The notes under the pieces: generated by a model
Told to the model about the DNA's origin: nothing
Database searches by the model: none
What the model saw: only the letters and a program-made list of their open reading frames with translations
Shown: positions 1 through 45,572 of the stretch, one piece after another
Numbering within the stretch: the stretch's first letter is position 1
Layout: each line of letters starts with the position of its first letter
Translations under genes and position numbers: made by a program
From: Mustelus asterias
Lineage: Eukaryota
Reading direction: 5' to 3'
Assembly: GCF_964213995.1 (NCBI RefSeq)
Contig: NC_135830.1
Location: 1,674,001 to 1,738,000 of the forward strand
Length of the DNA: 64,000 bases

Positions 1-330
1 AGTTGTCAGCACTGCTGCCTCACAGCGTCAGGGACCTTGGCTTAGATTCCCAGCTTGGGTCACTGTCTGTGTGGATTTCGTACGTTCTCCCTGTGTCTGC
101 GTGGATTTCCTCCGGGTGCTCCGGCTTCGTCCCACAGTCCAAAGATGTGCGGGTTAGGTACATTGGTCATGCTAAATTGCCCATTCGTGTCCCTGGATGC
201 ATAGGTTTTAGGGATTAACGAGGTAGATATGTGGGATTACGGGGTAGGGCCTAGGTGGGATTGTTGTCGATTCAGGCTCGATGGGCCTAATGGCCTAGTT
301 TTGCACTGTAGGTGTTCTGTGATTCTATGA
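1..330 (+). mobile_element. HE1-type tRNA-derived V-SINE (older copy, 5' end cut by window)
   Basis: tRNA-like head (AGCACTGCTGCCTCACAGC...GATTCC), V-domain (GGGTCACTGTCTGTGTGGA...TCCCACAGTCCAAAGATGTGC), CR1-like tail ending ATTCTATGA; homologous to many other copies in the window. Confidence 0.85.
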
Positions 331-419
331 ATTAATCAGCCATCAACAAAATATTTGAGACAAAACATCTGAACGAGAAAACAGCGAAAAGACATGTTAT
401 ATCTTCGTAATTCAATAAA

Positions 420-613
420 TCTCAAAACACGAGGTTGAAGTCCAAGAGGTTTATTTGGTAGCACGAGCTTTTGGAAGGCTGCCTCTTCACCAGGTGAATC
501 AGGGGCAGCGCTCCGAAAGCTCGCGCTACCAAATAAACCTGTTGGTCTTTAACCTGGTGTTGTGAGACTTCTTACTGTGCCTACCCCAGCCCAACGCCGG
601 CATCTCCACATCA
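420..613. mobile_element. Penelope-like element terminus remnant forming a ~150-bp palindrome with degenerate hammerhead motifs
   Basis: 420-480 is the near reverse complement of ~505-567; arms contain GCAGCGCTCCGAAAGCTC and AATAAA; homologous to the Penelope 3' end at 36450-36815. Confidence 0.75.
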
Positions 614-1101
614 TTTCTAAATTCAGTGCAGATATTATTAGTAAAGCCTTAGATATTTTGCTCGCCAGTAAACTACCTAATTGTATGAGGTAATTAGCGC
701 TTAATTAATTAAGAGCAATAATATATTGCAAGTTATTTTAATTACTAGTTAGTTGTCTTGTTAGCCGACTTCGACCCCACGTAAAAACATTTTTTCTAGT
801 TTTCAATAATTCGAAAGTTTGTTTCTGCCTGTCAATTTGTGAAATATTTGGAACTCAATTCGGTCAACATGACCTATCGTCTTAAATATAAAGTTCAAAT
901 CATTATTCAGATGCGCATATTATTTTTACGTAAATTTGATTCCACTTTAGTGTTGAACTTGTGCTCCAACTGCCCTGTTTGAAACAACTGAAGTGGTAAA
1001 ATATGCAAATTTCTGAAAACACTTTAAAATCATAAATTCCAACGATTGTCAGCAAGCAATTCACGTGATGATTTGAATGGTTTTTATACTGTCGTGTTTA
1101 T

Positions 1102-1322
1102 ATGCGGAGATGCCGGCGTTGGACTGGGGTAAACACAGTAAGGAGTCTAACAACACCAGGTTAAGGTCGAACAGGTTTATTTGGTAGTAAACGCCACTCG
1201 CTTTCCGAGCGCTGTTCCTTCGTCGGTGAGTGGGAGAGCAGCGCTCCGAAAGCTAGTGGCGTTTGCTACCAAATAAACCTGTTGGACTTAACCTGGTGTT
1301 GTTAGACTCCTTACTGAGTTTA
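1102..1322. mobile_element. Second Penelope-like palindromic terminus remnant (opposite orientation to the first)
   Basis: Inverted arms ~1130-1215 and ~1236-1322; GAGCAGCGCTCCGAAAGCTAGTGG hammerhead half; same tail (CCCCAGTCCAACGCCGGCATCTCC) on the minus strand. Confidence 0.75.
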
Positions 1323-2984
1323 TATGCCGCCATAACTCAAAACTACCTATGTAAATAAATACAATCGTTGGCAGGTTGTGGTCAATAAAAGTGGTTCTAT
1401 ATATAATGACAAGGCAATCTCTATAACCTAATAATATATTTAATTCAATCAGATTCAAATTAATTCTCCTGCAACATAATGAGAACAATTCGCTCAGATT
1501 ATCTATAACATGGAAACAGAATCAGTAACAGAAGTGTGATTTTGTTGGTTAATGTCACATTTCATAAAAAAATAAGCATCATGCTCATAGATAATCAGTT
1601 CATTTATTCATTGAGATTTTCTCCCCATAATTCTATCCTGTGTACAGTACATCCATTGGAGAGAGGATGTTGCTATTAAGTGCAAAACTAATATTAACCT
1701 TTTGCAATTAAATGTACCTGTTTGAATTTTAAGCTTATGCTTGTTATGTGCAGTTTGTAACTTCTTACACATGAAATAAAAGCACACGAGCAATCCATTC
1801 ACTGTCAGCGTTTCCACCTCTCGGACAATGTTTACCATTACTGTAGGGACAATTATCCCGCTATCAAACTGCAGATGACATTGAATGGATATTTTAACTG
1901 TGGCTGCATGGAAAAGATGTCATAACCGGAAACATATATTGCCGAAATTCACTAAATAAAATACTGATTTAATTGAATGCAAACTTAATCACGGATAGAA
2001 GAAAATAATTCCAAATGTCTTGTGAAACAGAAAACCGCTGTTTCTGGGATAATCAGTAATATTCCCAGTCTAGTAATTTTTCCAACCATGTAAATCAGAA
2101 TTGTGAACGGTGGTAGATTATTAATTATATTATTAGAAAAGCACTTTTGGCGTTTTAGTATGGTAATTCTTAGTATGGTAATTCTTTGAAATATACTCGA
2201 TTTACTCTCCAATTTGCAAACCTTTCAATGAAGAAGTTTTTGATTGCAACAACTTATAATACTTTGAATGAGAGGAAGCCATCCTTATTTTAACCTGTGA
2301 TCGTAAGCTTAAAAACAAATGACCCAAAGTATCATCATTTTTTAACCATCTCCTAAATTGCCCATTAACTCCCTACAATCGTGCCTCAAACAGTTTGAAA
2401 TGTGTAGACTGTTTGTATTTGATCACAAAACGTGGAACCACTCAGTCTCATCGACTTTACACAAAACCCCAACAAAATAGCAAAACGAGCCGTCACCATC
2501 TGTATGAATTACGCAACTAAATAAAAAAAGTGGAATAATAACACCACCATTTCGATAAATACAACATGTTCAATAAATCAGCATTGAAATATTGACACAT
2601 TTTCTTAACTTTGGGAGAAATTCTATAACTTTGAACAAATGATTGCAGCTCGTGTAAAACGCAAAAGCCATGAGAGGTATTGCAGACAGACCAAATTGTT
2701 TAACAAGCATTTGGTATTTAAAGTGCACCGGCTACATAATAATCTCAGCAGATAAACATCAAATCACAACAACCAGGGAATAACTCCTACAGCAGCTCAT
2801 TTCGTAAAAAAAACAATGAAATTTTATATCCGCTTTCAGCAGAATCACATTAAACATTGCAGTCAATCTCGATGTTAAATCCACCAAACTCATATTTCAG
2901 AAAGATACTGAAAATTTAAAAGAGACCAAAATATAAAAGAAAGGCTCCAATAAAACAGCAATAATGTAATTGCATGTTTCTTAC

Positions 2985-3032
2985 CTGCAGCAACTGTCAC
3001 CTTTGTCCCTTGCCCCCAGAAGTCGAAAGATT
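2985..3032 (-). CDS. IGHJ: Immunoglobulin heavy-chain J segment (SFDFWGQGTKVTVAA)
   Basis: WGxG motif; followed by phase-1 splice donor G|GTAAG; preceded by a 23-bp-spacer RSS. Confidence 0.95.
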
Positions 3033-3071
3033 CACTGTGTTTCATTCTCTGGGCTGGGTCTTACAAAAAAC
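3033..3071 (+). other. JH recombination signal sequence, 23-bp spacer
   Basis: Heptamer CACTGTG 3033-3039, 23-nt spacer 3040-3062, nonamer ACAAAAAAC 3063-3071. Confidence 0.92.
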
Positions 3072-3399
3072 AGCTCCACAGGTAGTACACAGAAAACCAC
3101 CATTATTTTTTAAATATTTAATCCAGAGGCAAAGCGAAGTGGTAATAGATCATTAATAAACTATAATTGCATTTGTGGATCCAGTTCACTCTTGATTGCT
3201 GACCCGAATGTTTTATCTTTCACAGAGTAACGCATGAGCATGTTATTGAAAACATCAACTGATAAGGGAATAATGATTACAGGTTTTTCAACTTAAGGCA
3301 ATTTTCTTCGTATAGTGCAGAACAAAAATCATACTTCACTGGTAAAATGGATTGCAAAAGCAAGCACTGAGCCAGCCTCAGTCAATTTGCACTGAGGGA

Positions 3400-3427
3400 A
3401 CTTTTTGTATTGTCATGAACTGCTGTG
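3400..3427 (-). other. Recombination signal sequence with 12-bp spacer 3' of the fused V-D
   Basis: Minus strand: heptamer CACAGCA (3427-3421), spacer GTTCATGACAAT (12 nt), nonamer ACAAAAAGT (3408-3400). Confidence 0.92.
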
Positions 3428-3750
3428 TTCCCCCCAGTTGCCGTAGTCCTTTGCACAATAATAGATGGCGGTGTCTTCAGTTTTCATGTTTGTCATGTCC
3501 AAAGCGAAGATATTGTTTGAAGTGTCTTTGGATGCGGTAAATCGGCTCTCAATGTCAGAGGCGTAATACTTATATGATGAACTGTAGTAGGCAACTAACC
3601 ACTGCAGGCCCTGCCCGGGAACATAGCGCAGCCAATGCATGTAGTAGCTGCCGAGTTTGAACCCGTTGGTTCTACAGGTCACTCTCAGCGTGCTTCCTGG
3701 GCGCCCGGTTGTTTCCTCCGTCTGAGTCAAAACAGCATCCGAATGGACAT
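3428..3750 (-). CDS. IGHV: IgM-type heavy-chain V exon already joined to D-like sequence (VD/VDD)
   Basis: Acceptor TTTCTTACAG; open frame ..VHS-DAVLTQ...TC...YYMHW...GQGLQW...[17 protein letters not shown]...[10 protein letters not shown] then DYGNWGE abutting a 12-RSS; canonical Cys/Trp/Cys retained; framework resembles elasmobranch IgM VH. Confidence 0.95.
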
Positions 3751-3870
3751 CTGTAAGAAATATTTTGAAAGACAGAGGATTAATTCTGATTAAATTACTG
3801 CTGGCTGTAACATTCTAGATATCGACTGTGACTTTAATAGTGAGTGAATTGGAGAATTTGAACTACTCAC

Positions 3871-3916
3871 GGGAGAAGAAAGCCAGCAGCAAACTCAGAA
3901 CCATCGCAGATATCAT
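3871..3916 (-). CDS. IGHV: IgH leader exon (MISAMVLSLLLAFFS)
   Basis: ATG at 3916, 46-nt hydrophobic exon, phase-1 donor C|GTGAGT, 120-nt intron splices in frame to the V exon. Confidence 0.93.
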
Positions 3917-4679
3917 CTTTCTGTTAGTTTGTGGAGATGATTGAGTTAGGAATTCAGTGAGCAAAGCAGCTCCAGGAATTTTGGGTTCCGATACTGGTGA
4001 GTGGCATTTAAATACCCGGCAGAATGGCGTGGGTTTCTCAGCGCCGCCTGTTGATTCCCTGATGGAGGTGGCGACTGGTTCCAGATCCAACCTCCACATC
4101 CTCAAAAGTATGGGCTCAGTGATTTACAATATTATTAAAAGCGTAAATTTGAACTCAATCGGGGCATTCGTTCAGCTGAATGGTTTAATTATAATATTTC
4201 CATTGTTTCTCAGTGTGAAATTGTGTGTTACAGTGGATTATTTGGGGAAACAAATGCCGCTGGTTAATTATCCACTTATTTCCACACTTATCAATGAGAT
4301 GAACATAAAATAAACAGTTACATTATCAGGCGATAAAGCGGCTATCTGTTTTAAAACAACGGTGGGCTTCGATCCCGCCATATATCAGCAATATATGATC
4401 ATGTACTTTCGGAATTCTTTTCATTTTCTGTAACTAACTGCTGGTGATGAATAGAATGATTCTGTCTGCAGTTTAGTTGGTTATTAATATGCGATGTGGG
4501 ACTTGAGATAAGGAAAATGAAAACACCTCAGATTATAGAAGCCAGCCGTCTGCAGACCCCCATGGCTCGAATGTCACATATAGAACGCTTCTGATGATTA
4601 TCGTGTAAATCAGAGATCGATCTGCTCAGAGTTGACATGTTGGCTACAAGCCAACTTCAAGCAGATAGCAATGTCAATC

Positions 4680-16016: not shown

Positions 16017-16194
16017 TTAGCCCAGTGCTGGATGTCAGACAAGTCAAGATGGTGGGTGACTTGGAGGTGGTGGTGTACACATCCACCTGCTACCCCGATC
16101 CTGATGCTGAAGTTTCAGGGTTTGGAAGGTTCTGTCAAATTTCTCATCAGGTTGTGAACCTGATATTAATCCATCACTTTCACCCCCTCACTTT

Positions 16195-17240
16195 CAGAGA
16201 GTGGGTATAGATGGGTCTTTTTCTAAATGGAGGTCGGTCACCAGTGGTGTGCCCCAGGGATCTGTTCTGGGACCCTTGCTGTTTGTCATTTTCATAAATG
16301 ACCTGGATGAGGAAGTGGAGGGATGGGTTCGTAAGTTTGCCGACGACACGAATGTTGGTGGGGTTGTGGATAGTCTGGAGGGATGTCAGAAGTTACAGAG
16401 GGACATAGATAGGATGCAAGACTGGGCAGACAAGTGGCAGATGGACTTCAACCCAGATAAATGCGTCGTGGCCCACTTTGGTAGGACAAATGGGATGAAG
16501 GAGTACAATATAAGGGGAAAGACTCTTGGTACGGTAGAGGATCAGAAGGACCTTGGCGTCCGGGTCCATAGGACTCTGAAATCGGCCCTGCAGGTGGAGG
16601 AGGTGGTTAAGAAGGCGTATGGTATGCTGGCCTTTATCAATAGAGGGATTGAGTTTCGCAGTCTGGGGATAATGATGCAGCTATATAAGACCCTCGTCAG
16701 ACCCCACTTGGAGTACTGTGCTCAGTTCTGGTCGCCTCACTATAGGAAGGATGTGGAAAAGATTGAAAGGGTGCAGAGGAGATTTACAAGGATCTTGCCT
16801 GTATTGAGTGGCATGCCTTATGAGGATAGGCTGAGGGAGCTCGGTCTTTTCTCCTTGGAGAGACGAAGGATGAGAGGAGACCTAATAGAGGTGTATAAGA
16901 TGTTGAGAGGCATAGATCGGGTGGACTCTCAGAGGCTTTTTCCCAGGGTGGAAATGTCTGCTACGAGAGGACACAGTTCTAAGGTACTGGGGGGTAGGGA
17001 CAGGGGAGATGTTAGGGGTAAGTTTTTCACACAGAGGATGGTGGGCGAGTGGAATCGGCTGCCGTCAGGGGTGGTGGAGGCGAACTGAATAGGGTCTTGT
17101 AAGAGACTCCTGGATGAGTACATGGAGCTTAATAGGATGGAGTGTTATAGGTAGGCCTAGAAGGTAGGGATGTGTTCGGCACAACTTGTGGGCCGAAGGG
17201 CCTGTTTGTGCTGTAGTTTTTCTATGTTTCTATGTTTCTA
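16195..17240 (+). mobile_element. 5'-truncated, relatively young CR1 LINE (295-aa open RT fragment)
   Basis: ORF 16201-17088 with SGVPQGSVLGP, KFADD, RPHLEYC; tail (TTTCTATG)n shared with the HE1 SINE tail. Confidence 0.93.
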
Positions 17241-22155: not shown

Positions 22156-23576
22156 ATGCTTTTCATGCTACTTCTCACGACCCTGGCCCTGTTAGCTATA
22201 GTGGGCAAATATCGATGGAATTATCAGAATTTAGGGATGGGACACAGTGAACATCTCTGTAATGATGACTCTGTCTATTGTATGAACACCTTTGTGTCTA
22301 TGTCTTAACTGTATGCATCACAATCGAATCTGAGCAAGTGCTGGGTCTGTTCACACATTCCCATGCACGGAGGAAAGGGAGGGATTCCTTTATTCCCTAT
22401 CCCTTTGTCAGCTCCTGAAGTAATTTAAATCAGAATGGAACCCAGAAAGGGTCAAGGCAACTGACATTCAAAACCCCATTGGGTACCACCATGCAGGGTA
22501 CGTTTAATATTAGTAACAATGATATTATGTTAAAGTTAGGGGGCGGAGGGTGCATTTTATCGTCCTTTAAGATGCATTCGCAACCCAGGTACGACAGATC
22601 AGATTCCCCACCCTACTTCTTTGTGAAAAATAAACAGAGGGGATCCATCTGCCTGATAAGAAATGGAACCATAACTGTTGGCCGTAGCTACTGTATAGAG
22701 CAGATTGATATCACGAATGATGCTTGGGCCATGATACAGGTCACAGTCCAGTGCCCCAAAGCCACCGTCCCGGTTAGCCTCTCCTCCGCTTATGTAAGCG
22801 AGATGACTGCATATAATGGTACCTATTTTGTCTGTGGAAGCAATGCCTATCCGTGGCTTCCCTGTAATTGGACAGGATCTTGTTATTTGGCATATGTGGT
22901 GCCCTATATTCACCATTACACTGATTTACGGGACCACCCCGAGATACACCTGCTTAGCGCTAAGCGAGCCATTAGAGAGACAGATAGGTTCTTCATGATA
23001 GTCTACCCATTTTATGGGACAGCAAAGGCAGCACAAGAACTTATACGGATGGCCTCGAACCTAGAGATAATTGCGAACGAGACTAAGGATGGGTTCGAGG
23101 AGGTGAGCACGGCCATCTCTGAAATATCAGCAGAGGTCGTAGCTATTCGGACTGTGGCCTTACAGAACCGATTGGCACTCGATTATGTGCTAGCCTCCCA
23201 AGATGGAACATGTGCCATTGTTGGCTCGGAATGCTGTACGTATATTCCCGATGCTTCGGAGAATATAACTCGCTTAGCAGATCATATTAAACACGTGGCG
23301 AAAACAACACAGGATGAAGGGAACCAATATCACAATTATAACCTTCCGGGATGGCTGGGGCAATGATTCGGGTCGTGGGGTGCGTACCTGGTGCATGGAT
23401 TGATTGTATTAATTGTAATTGTAATTACTTGCTGTGTTTGTATGGCATTATTGAACGCCCGTTGCAAAACAGTGACAGCGCGGATTATGCCGAGTGCAAG
23501 TGTACAGGCAGAGGGGGCAGGCCTCCCGACAAAGGAGCTAGAGCTAGGCCCATTCGCCGATAACATGTGGTTCTGA
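22156..23576 (+). pseudogene. env: Gamma-type retroviral envelope gene, disrupted
   Basis: Signal peptide MLFMLLLTTLALLAIVG, CWVC at 22339, basic cleavage site ..SAKR, fusion peptide, ISD LQNRLALDYVL, CX6CC (CAIVGSECC), TM helix; stops at 22306, 22426 and 23364, frameshift near 22430-22480. Confidence 0.9.
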
Positions 23577-30399: not shown

Positions 30400-32030
30400 T
30401 GTAATGACTTGATTAGGGAAATTAAGGTAAAGGAACCCTTAGGGAACTGTGACCCCAAAGATAGAATTTATCCTGCAGTTTGAGAGGGAGATGCTGGAAT
30501 CAGATATAACGGTATTACAATTAAATAAAGGTAACCACAAAGACGAGAGGGAGGATCTGGCCAGAGTTGATTGGAAAGGAAACCCGGCAGGGAAGACAGT
30601 GGAAGAGCAATGGCAGCAGTTTTTTGGGGGTTATTCGGGAGGCACAACAGAATTTTATCCCAAGGAGGAGGAAACATGCTATGTGGAGGAGGAGGCATCC
30701 AAAGCTGACGAGGGAAGTCAAGGACAGCATAAAAGCAATGACTCCCAAGTCCCTTTGTGTTTCTGATTTCCTAAGCATTTTCCCATTTAGAAAATAGTCT
30801 AAGCCTCGAGGCCTCCTTCCAAAGTGCAGAACCTCACAAATCTTACACATTGTATTCTATCTGTCACTTCTTTGCCCACTCTCCTAACCTGTCCAATTCA
30901 TTCTGCAGCCACCCTTCTTCCTCAATACTACCTGTCCCTCTACATATCTTTCTATCATTTGCAAACTTAGCCTTCAATTCCTTCCTCCAAATCGTTAATG
31001 TATATTGTGAGAAGTTGTGGTCCCAGCACTGTCCCCTGAGGCACACCACTAGTCATCAGCTGCCATCCTGAGAAAGACCCCTTAATTCCCACTCTGTGAC
31101 TTCTGCCAGTCAACCCAATCCTCTATCCATTCCAGGATCTTACACTTAACACCATGGACTCTTAACTGATTCAACAGTCTCCTATGTGGCGCCTTGTAAA
31201 AGGCCTTCTGAAAATCTAAATAAATCACGTCCACTGGTTCTCCTTTAGCTAACTTCCTTGTTACCTCCTCAAAGAGCTCCAACAGTTTTGTCAGACATGA
31301 CCTCCCCTTGACAAAGCCGTGCTGACTCAGTCCCACTTTATCATGCATTTCTAAGGACTGTGCGATCTCATCTTTAATAATGGAATCTAAAATCTTGCCA
31401 AAGACCGAAGTCAGGCTAACCAGCCTATAATTTCGCATCTGCTGCCTCTCTCCCTTTTTGAAGAGCGGTGTTGCATTCGCTTCCTCCCAGTCCTCTGGTA
31501 CTCTCCCTGCCTCCAGTGATTCCTGAAAGACCACCTCCAATGCCTCCACAATTTCCTCAGTATCTCTTTTAGAACCCTGGGGTGTAGTCCATCCGGTCCA
31601 GGTTAGTTATCCACCTTCAGGCCTTTCAGTTTCCCCAGAACCTCCTCCTTAGTGATGGTCACGACATCATCTGTGCCCCCTGACTCTCCTGGAGCCCTTG
31701 AATCCCACTGGTATCTTCCACCGTGAAGACTGATGCAAAGTAACTATTCAGTTCCTCTGCCATTGCTTTATTTCCTACTATTACTGCTCCAGCCTCATTT
31801 TCCAGTGGTCCAATTGCTATTTTTTACCTCTTACCTTTTATGTATTGAAAAAAAAACTCTTCCTAAATTATTTTTATATTATTAGCTTGCTTACACTCAT
31901 ATCTTCTCCTCTCTCCTCTCCCCCCCCCCCCCACCCCCCCTTATTGCTTTTTCAGTTGTCCTCTGCTCGCTGTTAAATGCTTCCCGATCCTCTGGCTTCC
32001 CAGTAATCCTTGCCACTTTGTATGCTTTCT
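30400..32030. mobile_element. CR1 LINE with internal inversion (plus 30400-30737, minus 30738-32030)
   Basis: Plus piece ends ...GACAGCATAAAAGCAA and minus piece begins (at ~32030) GAGAAAGCATACAAAG, contiguous in CR1 ORF2; minus ORF with YRLVSLTSV, QHGFVKGRSC, VDVIYLDFQKAF. Confidence 0.82.
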
Positions 32031-37188: not shown

Positions 37189-38778
37189 TCAATTGTGAAC
37201 TCGCTGGTGTGTCTGGAGGTTGGCTAACTGAGTGAATCCTTTCCCACACTGGGAGCAGGTGAATGGCCACTCCCCAGTGTGAACTCGCTGATGTACTTTA
37301 AGATTGGGTGAAGACCTGAATCCTTTTCCACAGGGAGCACAAGTAAACGGTTTGTCTTCGTCTGAATTCACTTGTGTACACTGAGGTTTGATGAAGACTT
37401 GAAACTCTTTCCATAGGAAGTAGAGGTGAATGGTCTCTTCCCAGTCTGAATGCGCTCGTGTGTTCATAGACCATAGGACCCAATGAATCCTTTTCCACAC
37501 TCGGAGCAGGTGAATGGTTTCTCCCCGGTGTGCAGTCGCTGGTGTCTCAACGGGTAGGCTGACTGAATGAATCCCTTCCCACACAAAGAGCAGGTGAATG
37601 GTCTCTCCCCAGTGTGAGCTGGCTGGCATACTTTGAGGTGGAATGAAGATCTGAATCCCTCTCCAGAGAAAGTGCAGTTGAATGGCCTCTCCTCAGAGTG
37701 AACTGTCTGGTGCTTCTGGAGGTCAGTGGATCTAATGAATCGTTTACCACATTCAGGGCAGTTGAATGGCCTCTCTCCAGTGTGAATTCGCTCGTGCCTC
37801 AGCAGGTAGGCAGACTGTGTGAATTCTTCCCCACACTCAGAGCAAGCGAATGGCCTCTTCCTTTTGTGAACCGACTGGTGTGTCAGTAGATTAGATAATT
37901 GAGACAATTTCTTTCCACATTTAGAGCAGGTGAATGGTCTTTCCTGGATGTGAATTCGCTGGCGTGTCAGCAAATGAGATAATTGAATGAAGTTCTTCCC
38001 ACACTCAGAGCAGGTGAGCGGTCTCTCTCCATTGTGAACTCGCTAGTGTACACTGAGGCTTGTTAAACACCTGAATCTCTCCTCCATGTGAATTCGCTGA
38101 TGCATTCGCAGGTCAGTGAACCCTTTCCCACAACTGGGGCAAATGAAAGGTTATTCTCCAGTGTGAGCCCACTGATGACTCAGCAGGTACGCTGACTGAA
38201 TTAATCCCTTCCCACACTCGAGCAGATGAATGGCCTCTCTCCAGTATGAACTCGCTGATGTACTTTCAGGTGGAATGAAGACCTGAATCCCTTTCCACAG
38301 AATGTACATCTGAATGGCTTCTCCTCAGTGTGAACTCGCTGGTATTTCATCTTCTCAGAGGGCCCAGTGACTCCATTCCCACATTCATGGCAGGTGAACG
38401 GCCTCTCTCCAGTATGTTCTCGCTGATGTATCCGCAGGTTCGAAAACTGAATGAATCCCTTCCCACATTCAGGGCAGATAAACGGTCTCTCCCCCGTGTG
38501 TTTTCGCTTGTGCGTTAACAGTTGGGATAACTGAGTGAATCCCCTCCCACGTTCGGGGCAGGTGAATGGTCTCTCTCCAGTGTGAGTGCGTTGATGGATT
38601 TCAAGCAGGGATTGAAATCATTTCGAGTATCCTCACATTTCTAAGGTTTCTCCATGCTGCCAGAATCCTTGGTTCTCTCCAGATTGGATGATCAGTTGAA
38701 GCCTCATCCACATACACAACACACATCCAGTTGCCCCTTTTGAGAATAGCGTGATTTTGTTTCCGGCTGTGTAACTCG
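37189..38778 (-). pseudogene. C2H2 zinc-finger gene C (~17 fingers, frameshifted)
   Basis: ORFs 37189-37629 and 37464-37973 plus upstream finger repeats; 5' end cut by a CR1 fragment. Confidence 0.9.
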
Positions 38779-43404: not shown

Positions 43405-44661
43405 GTGAAGTATTTTGAAGTATTTAGTTATCAGTATGTTAATCATTGTTTAACAGTATTGCAGTTCTTTTTCGCCAGCAGCGTTTCCGAATGGAACCAA
43501 TATCCTTTTCCCCTTTTACCAGTTAGTTTCTCCAAATTGTTGTGAAAACTGCTCCAGATTGATTGGTTTAATGTATCCGCAGAATCATATTTTCCCAATT
43601 TAGAATCATAGAAACCCTACAGTGCAGAAGGAGGCCATTCGGCCCATCGAGTCTGCACCGACCACAATCCCACCCAGGCCTTACCCCCACATTTAATGTT
43701 ATAAATTATCAATTTCGATTATATGGAGTCATTCTTCCCTTTATTGACGTGCTCAATCCTCATTGCTGGTATGCTTTTTTATTCGGCACTTTAAACGTGC
43801 CCTTTCTCTCATTCATTGCCATGGCTTCTTCATATTGCCGGTATATTTTCTCCTATTTAACGTTAAAATGACTTCCCTTTACCAATGCAATTCCATCATT
43901 TTTAATTGTATAGCTTCTCCCACATAATTATCCAGTGTACCAATTTGAATTTTGTTGTTGATATTGATCCTGCCGGTGCATTGTCACAGCGATACAATAG
44001 TACATAGGTACCTAGATGGTATTGCGATGCAAGTCAATCTTTCCATTTCAGTGAAATTAAAATAATGCAGATGATACCTGAAATTAGAACAAAACGTTTT
44101 AATTTCAGATCTGAAAACGTCAGCAGGCCTGGCAGTATTTGGGCAGATAGAGAAAATGTTACCATTTCCAGTCTTATTCCTCTTGCTCTGAGCGTGTTTA
44201 GCTAATTGTCTTTTTCCTGTGATTTCCTTTTTGTACCGAAGTGAAGTACTTTGTTTTTCTCCATGCTGTCTTTCTCGCTGAACTCAAGGTCCAGATAAAA
44301 TTAGTTCCCCATGAATTTACAGTGCCTGGGACTGTCCTTGTCTTCCATCTACTCGGAGATTCAATGATCGTACAATTGATATATTTGGTGGAGTAGGGCC
44401 ACAAATTCAAAAATTCAATACTCACAGTTCAAATGACCCAGTACCCTCACTGGGGTTGCAGTGTATGCAGAACGGACGGATTTTCGCAATTTAGGAGGGA
44501 TGTTTCTCTTGTGGAACAGAAAGGTCATTCACACAGAATTTTAAAAAAACTTGCTCTCGTTTTGATTTTAGCAATAGCGCTCAAAGGTGTTATCATTACC
44601 GAAATTTCAACTGTGTATTTTTCCCTCAACTAATTATTCAGGCTATGTTTCTCTGTTACAG

Positions 44662-45572
44662 CTAATCTGGCAGTGATTCTGATCCTATCTCGAGGAAGAT
44701 ACGGTCTCTCCAGATGTATCACTTACTACCTGGTATCCATGGCGGTGACAGATCTTCTGGTCATTATCACCTCTGTGATATTAAACAGAATTGTGGGTAT
44801 TTATTTCCCAACCAGTTTCCTCTCAATCACTCCAGTCTGTAGCCTCAGTCTTGCAATGATTTATGGGACCAGGGATTCTTCCGTCTGGGTAACTGTTGCT
44901 TTCACCTTTGATCGTTTTGTCGCCATTTGTTGCCAGAAAATGAAAACCAGATATTGTACCGCGAAAACGGCGGCGGTTGTCATTGGAACGGTCTGTGCTT
45001 TGGGCTACGTGAGAAACATCCCTTGGTACTTTGTTTATGAGCCTGCTTATGTTGTTAACAATACACCCTGGTTTTGCAGCGCCAAACCGATATTTTATAC
45101 GTCAGTTGCATGGGCTGCATTTGACTGGATTCTCGCCATTTTAACTCCCTGGCTCCCTCTAATTCTGATTTTACTGCTCAACGCTCTGACGGTCAGACAC
45201 ATTCTAGCAGCCAGTATATCACGCAGGAGACTCCGCACTCAGAACAGTGGACAGGATCAGGCTGACCCCGAGATGGAAAGGCGAAGGAAATCTATTGTTT
45301 TACTGTTTGCAATCTCGGGCAGTTTCACCCTCTTATATTTGTCATATTTTATCAATATCATTTACGTCCGAATTGCGAATGTTCCTTATTTCTCAGGTTC
45401 TGATTCTGCTGAATCAGCATTTAGCCTGGAGGAAATCGGATATATGCTACAGTTTTTGAGTTCGTGCATCAACCCGTTTATTTATGCAGGTACCCAGAGT
45501 AAAATTAGAGAAGATTTGAAGAATTGGGCCACATATCCATTGACACTGGTTGTCACAATATTTAATTGGTGA
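44662..45572 (+). CDS. GPR139/GPR142-like GPCR, coding exon 2 (spliced product 326 aa, intact)
   Basis: Acceptor TGTTACAG; MAVTDLLV (TM2), AFTFDRFVAICC (DRF), SSCINPFIY (NPxxY); seven hydrophobic segments; no stops. Confidence 0.92.

What the first reader, a model, noticed from the sequence alone, without database searches (positions are those of the whole stretch)
2985..3916. Partially germline-joined IgH gene: V fused to D(D), one RAG step from completion
Seen: an intact leader and VH run straight into GACTACGGCAACTGGGGGGAA (DYGNWGE) and then a 12-spacer RSS. There is no V 23-RSS and no free D segment. An intact JH with a 23-RSS lies ~330 bp downstream. Known: elasmobranch IgM clusters are V-D1-D2-J with V carrying a 23-RSS and D2 a 3' 12-RSS, and germline-joined genes occur in sharks and skates. 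Inference: RAG acted in the germline to fix V-D1-D2, leaving a semi-invariant antibody that can diversify only at the D-J junction. All signals are intact despite a decayed neighbourhood, which suggests function or recent origin.
Basis: partly seen in the sequence, partly recalled or inferred. Interest (0 to 1): 0.8.

Follow-up and report, generated by a model that had tools for sequence, protein, structure and literature searches.

The report
Shark antibody gene joined in stages
This shark IgM antibody gene has its V and D pieces already fused in inherited DNA, a known shark habit, but a related species carries the same gene with the last join also made, likely showing the antibody-cutting enzyme working through one gene in stages over evolution.

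Summary
Observation confirmed: open leader and VH run into a D2-derived end and the D2 3' 12-RSS; an intact JH with 23-RSS follows. The join is clonal in two samples of the species, so not somatic. The class is known (V DD-J in horn shark and skate, PMC2193153), common here (15 of 91 IgM-type loci) and noted by this scan before on other DNA. It is not recent: the gene is a single-copy, old lineage with a catshark orthologue. Cmu1-4, TM1 and TM2 lie left of the window, open, dN/dS 0.31-0.39. (1) In organism B (one sample, two runs) the orthologue has the same V-D join and also D-J joined exactly at both signals, in frame, without added bases: likely stepwise germline RAG action. (2) The secreted tail stops before its cysteine (1 of 79 tails) and the membrane tail is longer: either a monomer-only subclass or early decay. 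D1 content is unproven; expression untested.

The parts
3917..4170 (-). VH promoter and 5' UTR, conserved with other IgM clusters (TATTTAAAT at 4014-4006 and upstream blocks)
   Evidence: alignment with 8 paralogues; function inferred
3871..3916 (-). Leader exon, 46 nt, phase 1, GT donor
3446..3750 (-). VH exon to the V-encoded CAKD end; open, both Cys and Trp present
   Evidence: orthologue P0013 also reads CAKD
3440..3445 (-). Six letters between V end and D2 core: remnant of D1 or added bases (unresolved)
3428..3439 (-). D2-derived coding end (8-letter exact core shared with the commonest D2)
   Evidence: 13 of 2000 shuffles reach the D2 score
3400..3427 (-). D2 3' RSS, 12 spacer
3031..3427 (-). 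D2-J interval with both signals: the 397 nt absent from the orthologue of organism B
   Evidence: joint 3030/3428
3033..3071 (-). JH RSS, 23 spacer
2985..3032 (-). JH coding segment with GT donor
1..2984 (-). First part of the 10,036-nt J-Cmu1 intron. The constant exons lie left of the window, minus strand, in G000:C71: Cmu1 1666649-1666948, Cmu2 1666130-1666447, Cmu3 1664475-1664783, Cmu4 plus secretory tail 1661157-1661539 (tail stops after DTVN, before the tailpiece Cys), TM1 1654743-1654870, TM2 1654570-1654602 (usual stop lost, 8 residues longer)
   Evidence: all open, AG/GT sites in phase; window position 1 = C71:1674001

Best explanation
This is a single-copy shark IgM heavy-chain cluster whose V and D pieces are fused in inherited DNA, likely by RAG acting in an ancestor's germ line, and whose orthologue in organism B has D and J fused as well, likely by a second, later germline RAG event. 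In this species a B cell would need one D-J join (12/23 pair still present) to make a heavy chain with a fixed V and fixed first CDR3 residues, varied only at the D-J junction and by hypermutation (inferred). It would be spliced to Cmu1-4 (shown open) and is predicted to be secreted as a monomer, because the tail ends before the cysteine that links IgM subunits and J chain. In organism B the gene would need no recombination: the joint keeps the frame and gives one 13-residue CDR3. Shown: anatomy, clonality, shared join, joint position and frame, tail stop in the assembly. Inferred: RAG as agent, order of events, expression, monomer secretion.
For: Clonal: X1 one 3437-bp contig, depth 31.5, 0 differences over 2940-3760, no joint or loose end (may be the assembly's source); X3, another sample of the same study, 0 differences over 3369-3880. 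No split copy of this V found in G000: other long DNA matches 69-75%. Shared and old: organism B contig has 29 differences in 773 nt (X5) and runs through the V-D join; no difference is listed in 3428-3571 (X6; 3 of 15 not listed); V tree joins L001 with S. torazame P0013 at SH-aLRT 98 (quick tree); Cmu1 78% to P0013, 68% to Triakis IgM. Second join: X5 and X6 each give one 2367-bp contig that skips 397 nt from 3030 to 3428, no letters between, 3 letters fit both sides; this is the D2 heptamer border and 2 nt into J; Cys-to-Trp 45 nt, in frame. Few or no added bases matches germline joints of PMC2193156. X9 (shark metagenome, other study) keeps D end, 12-RSS and interval, 9 differences in 295 (depth 2). 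Purifying selection over the long run: C-region dN/dS 0.31-0.39, dS 0.47-0.54 against 5 paralogues. Tail: 78 of 79 matched tails read Ser-Cys-X-stop; only this one has the early stop, and its old stop is gone too.
Against: Organism B rests on one sample and one study, on contigs, which drop rare variants; its tissue is unknown. X9 has only 15 letters on the V side of the V-D join and depth 2. Recent selection looks weak: of 12 listed V differences to B, 8 change a residue (3 more not listed), and the 4 sites where B and C agree against this species all change a residue. Both altered stops could be decay. dN/dS is pairwise and includes the paralogue branches. Joined H chains of horn shark were not found expressed (PMC2193156). 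D1 content not significant.
Confidence: 0.62

Rival explanations
1. The germline join is real and old, but in this species the gene is a young pseudogene: the lost tail cysteine, lost TM2 stop and FR1 replacements are the first signs of decay.
For: Two changed stop codons; 8 of 12 listed A-B differences are replacements; non-consensus J heptamer and D nonamer; no expression found for joined horn shark H genes; another VDD-J cluster, L011, is visibly broken (stop in Cmu4, deletion in TM1).
Against: All 9 exons and segments are open with splice sites in phase and the promoter is conserved; both stop changes leave usable proteins; poly(A) signals stay at +90/+99; the orthologue's extra joint is in frame (a 1-in-3 chance event).
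Confidence: 0.3
2. Only one join was made: V joined directly to D2 (23/12), deleting D1, with about six added bases; the gene is VD2-J and not VD1D2-J.
For: D1 match is at chance level, 12% of shuffles; V 23-RSS and D2 5' 12-RSS are a legal pair.
Against: Three D1 words match at 6 of 7 letters, the VD1 join of L085 has the same ACTACGG, and germline joints usually lack added bases (PMC2193156).
Confidence: 0.3
3. The full join in organism B is somatic (a B-cell clone or lymphoid tissue) or a chance deletion at a short repeat, not germline RAG.
For: One sample only; 3-letter overlap at the joint; VDD-J and VDDJ products are normal in shark lymphocytes (PMC2435157).
Against: Identical joint and contig length in two runs, contig unbroken across it, and both ends within 0-2 nt of the heptamers.
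Confidence: 0.1
4. The V-D join in the window is a somatic molecule that entered the assembly, or this V family naturally has a long end and a 12-RSS.
For: Some joined loci of G000 have near-identical siblings in another state, so somatic leakage into this assembly is not excluded in general.
Against: Same join in X1, X3 and organism B; no split copy found in G000; split V genes end with a 23-RSS (45 of 45); interval is D2-J type.
Confidence: 0.02

Closest known systems
Partially germline-joined IgM clusters (V DD-J//C) of horn shark and little skate (PMC2193153, PMC2193156; Kokubu et al. 1988 seen only as a citation)
   Same: V fused to D, D2 3' 12-RSS and J 23-RSS kept, own Cmu exons, mixed with split clusters in one genome.
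   Different: Here one orthologous gene is seen in two states in two species; tail cysteine lost; TM2 tail longer.
Nurse shark IgM1gj (PMC4279169, PMC5192425 passages; protein P0051)
   Same: Divergent IgM with germline-joined V region; secreted as monomer and dimer; organism B's form is fully joined like it.
   Different: Not an orthologue: V 54% identical, separate in the tree; Cmu2 is present here and absent in IgM1gj; P0051 keeps the tail Cys; here D-J is still open.
Nurse shark NS4 (kappa) germline-joined light chains (PMC2193156)
   Same: Joints at RSS borders with trimming and little sign of TdT; derived from split genes; stable once fixed.
   Different: Light chains need one join; here successive joins on one heavy-chain gene are separated by a species split.
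Scyliorhinus torazame XP_072357606.1 (P0013)
   Same: 78% V and 78% Cmu1 identity, CAKD V end, VTVAA J end; sister in the V tree.
   Different: Its model has no DYGNWGE between V and J; whether that is a real join or a gene-model splice could not be checked.

Membership tests
Elasmobranch IgM cluster | Leader, VH, JH and four Cmu exons plus TM exons in one cassette | tested here: met
   J-Cmu1 intron 10,036 nt
Elasmobranch IgM cluster | Secretory tailpiece with penultimate cysteine | tested here: not met
   stop before the Cys; the other 78 of 79 matched tails keep it. Lowers 'canonical polymer-forming IgM', not 'IgM-derived'
Germline partially joined VDD-J | No V 23-RSS, no free D; D-derived letters then D2 12-RSS; J 23-RSS | tested here: met
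Germline partially joined VDD-J | Join clonal and heritable, not somatic | tested here: met
   X1, X3 and organism B share it; contigs only, tissue unknown
Germline partially joined VDD-J | Both D1 and D2 contribute | tested here: inconclusive
   D2 13 of 2000 shuffles; D1 2395 of 20000
Germline partially joined VDD-J | Remaining RSS pair recombines in lymphocytes | not testable with these tools
   the same pair of borders was used in organism B's joint; somatic use not seen
IgM1gj | Fully joined VDJ | tested here: not met
   open D-J in this species; joined only in organism B
IgM1gj | Cmu2 missing | tested here: not met
   Cmu2 present and open
IgM1gj | Orthology with the nurse shark gene | tested here: not met
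IgM1gj | Preferential neonatal expression | not testable with these tools
   no RNA run was available to lay

The most novel reading that the evidence does not exclude
An old, single-copy IgM subclass of ground sharks is being hard-wired by germline RAG one join at a time, V-D in a common ancestor and D-J later in one species, and has lost the polymerising cysteine: a monomeric, near-invariant antibody that arose independently of IgM1gj and is caught before and after its last step.
Probability: 0.3. Interest if true: 0.75.

Novelty: new variant of a known kind. Interest (0 to 1): 0.5.

Why it matters
Whether germline-joined shark heavy chains have a function, and how they arise, is an old open question; PMC2193156 notes that the heavy-chain joints were too varied to dissect. 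One orthologous gene in a half-joined and a fully joined state gives the substrate and the product of a single germline event, with the joint readable to the base, and lets semi-invariant and invariant versions of one antibody be compared in related species. The arrangement in the window alone is ordinary.

Tried and rejected
No RNA holder listed: no evidence on expression either way. Organism C (X10) shows orthologous pieces only at 3623-3773 and 4006-4167, not at the junction. A protein search for an orthologous Cmu4 tail found none clearly orthologous among 54 hits. PDB search gave only mammalian and camelid VH among the 60 shown. One search was translated in the wrong frame and one search used wrong coordinates for two rows; neither is used. 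In one search several 'best other-state' rows (1/1 to 5/5) are alignment artefacts and were ignored. The careful tree did not finish; the quick tree on 95 columns is used for one starred branch only. First TM2 searches by motif failed; alignment found it. The D1 test overlapped the D2 letters and was redone. Look-up of earlier findings by sequence gave nothing. Rejected: IgM1gj orthology, IgW, TCR-associated V, natural V 12-RSS. Papers not held: Kokubu 1988, Rumfelt 2001 and 2004, Lee 2008, Hsu 2016.

Full report
Observation. On the minus strand the window holds a leader (3916-3871), a V exon (3750-3428) open through [10 protein letters not shown], a 12-spacer RSS (3427-3400), a 23-spacer RSS (3071-3033) and a JH (3032-2985). 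A scan of both strands of the window found 4 RSS-like sites, two of them these; there is no V 23-RSS and no free D. The RSS consensus used is recalled. The V is a Pfam V-set domain. The window is G000:C71:1674001-1738000.

What is joined. In 45 split clusters of the same genome V ends 12 nt after the Cys codon start with a 23-RSS; D1 is typically flanked 12/22 and D2 12/12. The window's stretch between D end and J matches their D2-J interval at 66-70% and the other two intervals at 47-53%, so the 12-RSS is D2's. The D2 core is beyond chance (13 of 2000 shuffles). The letters before it match three D1 words at 6 of 7, which 2395 of 20000 shuffles also do: V-D1-D2 is plausible, V-D2 is not excluded.

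Germline. No split copy of this V was found in G000; other long matches are 69-75% identical, 40 of 164 candidates scored. Run X1 gives one contig, depth 31.5, identical over 2940-3760, no joint (it may be the assembly's source). X3, a second sample of that study, is identical over 3369-3880. Organism B carries the same V-D join. A somatic origin is therefore very unlikely. All runs are contigs, which drop rare variants.

How common. A pattern for V framework 3 gave 98 hits; with L012 I classified 99 loci: 91 IgM-type, 3 IgW-like, 5 not IgH. Of the 91: 45 split, 15 VDD-J, 9 VD-D-J, 9 V-DD-J, 3 V-D-DJ, 2 V-DDJ, 6 VDDJ, 2 unclassified. The 15 VDD-J loci have 10 distinct junction strings. Many are duplicates or haplotigs, some may be somatic, and the census misses divergent V genes such as the one in L126. 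The arrangement is thus ordinary here.

Constant region. Left of the window lie Cmu1-4, all open with AG/GT sites in phase, 10,036 nt after J, then TM1 and TM2. Against 5 paralogues dS is 0.47-0.54 and dN/dS 0.31-0.39 (pairwise; a sixth cluster had no C exons in the 20 kb fetched). The promoter is conserved. Two oddities: the secretory tail stops after DTVN, three residues short and before the tailpiece Cys, and its former stop is now Trp; the other 78 of 79 tails matched by the pattern keep Ser-Cys-X-stop (tails with other changes would be missed). TM2 has lost its stop and runs 8 residues longer than in the 5 paralogues aligned. In human IgM the tailpiece Cys575 is critical for polymer formation and binds J chain (PMC8657937 passages; PMC10801876 passages), so monomer secretion is predicted, not shown. 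Neither change was checked on reads.

Age and orthologues. The V groups with Scyliorhinus torazame P0013 (SH-aLRT 98, quick tree, 81 rows, 95 columns; stop-containing, duplicate, frameshifted L063 and non-IgH V genes left out) and not with IgM1gj (V 54% identical). Cmu1 is 78% identical to P0013 and 68% to Triakis IgM. The P0013 model has no D letters between CAKD and J; this may be a gene-model splice and could not be checked. So the cluster is an old single-copy lineage and 'recent origin' fails.

The second join. Runs X5 and X6 (organism B, one sample, one study) each give one 2367-bp contig, depth 7.9 and 6.0, that follows the window over V and D (in X5 also promoter and leader; 29 differences in 773 nt) and then skips from 3428 to 3030, 397 nt, with no letters between and 3 letters that fit both sides. 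One end is the D2 heptamer border, the other lies 2 nt into J; two of the shared letters are coding on both sides. Cys to Trp is 45 nt, in frame, 13 CDR3 residues. None of the 12 listed V differences makes a stop; 3 of 15 were not listed; the one gap is in the leader intron. X9 (shark metagenome, another study, depth 2) keeps D end, 12-RSS and interval, with 15 letters of V end. As a deletional join cannot be undone (established V(D)J mechanism), VDD-J is ancestral and B's form derived. Exact use of both signals and no added bases fit germline RAG joints (PMC2193156). The weak point is one individual of unknown tissue.

Against function. Of 12 listed differences to B, 8 change a residue; at the 4 sites where B and C agree against this species all change a residue. 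Joined horn shark heavy chains were not found expressed. With the two changed stops, early decay stays at about 0.3.

Known work. 'V DD-J//C' germline clusters of horned shark and little skate are named in PMC2193153 (passages). PMC2193156: passages and Discussion part 1 read. PMC2435157, PMC4279169, PMC5192425, PMC12227049: passages; the last places IgM, IgW, IgNAR and TCR alpha/delta together, as C71 also suggests (L057 and L065 look like TCR-type V genes, my reading from recall). PMC2191167: abstract passage only. Kokubu 1988, Rumfelt 2001, Lee 2008 and Hsu 2016 were not held and are known to me only by citation or recall. Searches returned no paper whose listing or read passages describe one orthologous heavy-chain gene in two joining states or a shark IgM gene without the tail Cys; most subscription papers are not in the library, and I opened no supplements (table S1 of PMC12227049 lists Ig coordinates and may bear on this). 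The scan itself noted half-joined IgM genes before, in this and other genomes.

Verdict. Real, germline, a known class. The added value is the staged history across species and the monomer-type tail; both need raw reads and RNA. Interest 0.5.

Noticed in passing
L058 (G000:C71:7317073) against L015 (C270) and L016 (C128): Three copies 99.1-99.8% alike over about 19 kb share one VDD junction; L058 also has D-J joined, out of frame. A second half-joined/fully joined pair inside one genome; germline allele, duplicate or somatic molecule not decided.
   Followed up: partly
L111/L007, L117/L083, L119/L008-L009: Near-identical V genes (441-443 of 443 nt) in successive joining states (V-DD-J to VDD-J; split to VDD-J): very recent germline joins or somatic leakage into the assembly.
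   Followed up: partly
G000, 91 IgM-type loci: Six of the seven possible joined states occur; VD-DJ was not seen; states with D-J still open dominate (33 of 44 joined loci).
   Followed up: partly
L126 (G000:C71 about 1563800-1564980, + strand): Neighbouring divergent IgH cluster with a 22-spacer V signal, a single D flanked 12/12 and a J; missed by my V pattern. Lead came from an earlier finding.
   Followed up: partly
L052/L063, L061/L080, L102: Other fully joined VDDJ loci; L052, L063 and L102 are in frame at the junction (L063 is frameshifted upstream in V), L061/L080 have a damaged J.
   Followed up: no
L105 (G000:C185): IgW-like V with a joined D and a 23-spacer signal after it: partial joining is not limited to IgM.
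   Followed up: no
window 22419-23366 (+): 315-codon open frame with Pfam TLV_coat (retroviral env-like), E 5e-14.
   Followed up: no
window 44634-45572 (+); 37464-38042 (-); 16111-17088 (+) and 31082-31606 (-): A 312-codon rhodopsin-family GPCR frame, a C2H2 zinc-finger frame and two reverse-transcriptase fragments.
   Followed up: no
window 3234: X9 has 6 extra letters in the D2-J interval relative to the window (depth 2).
   Followed up: no
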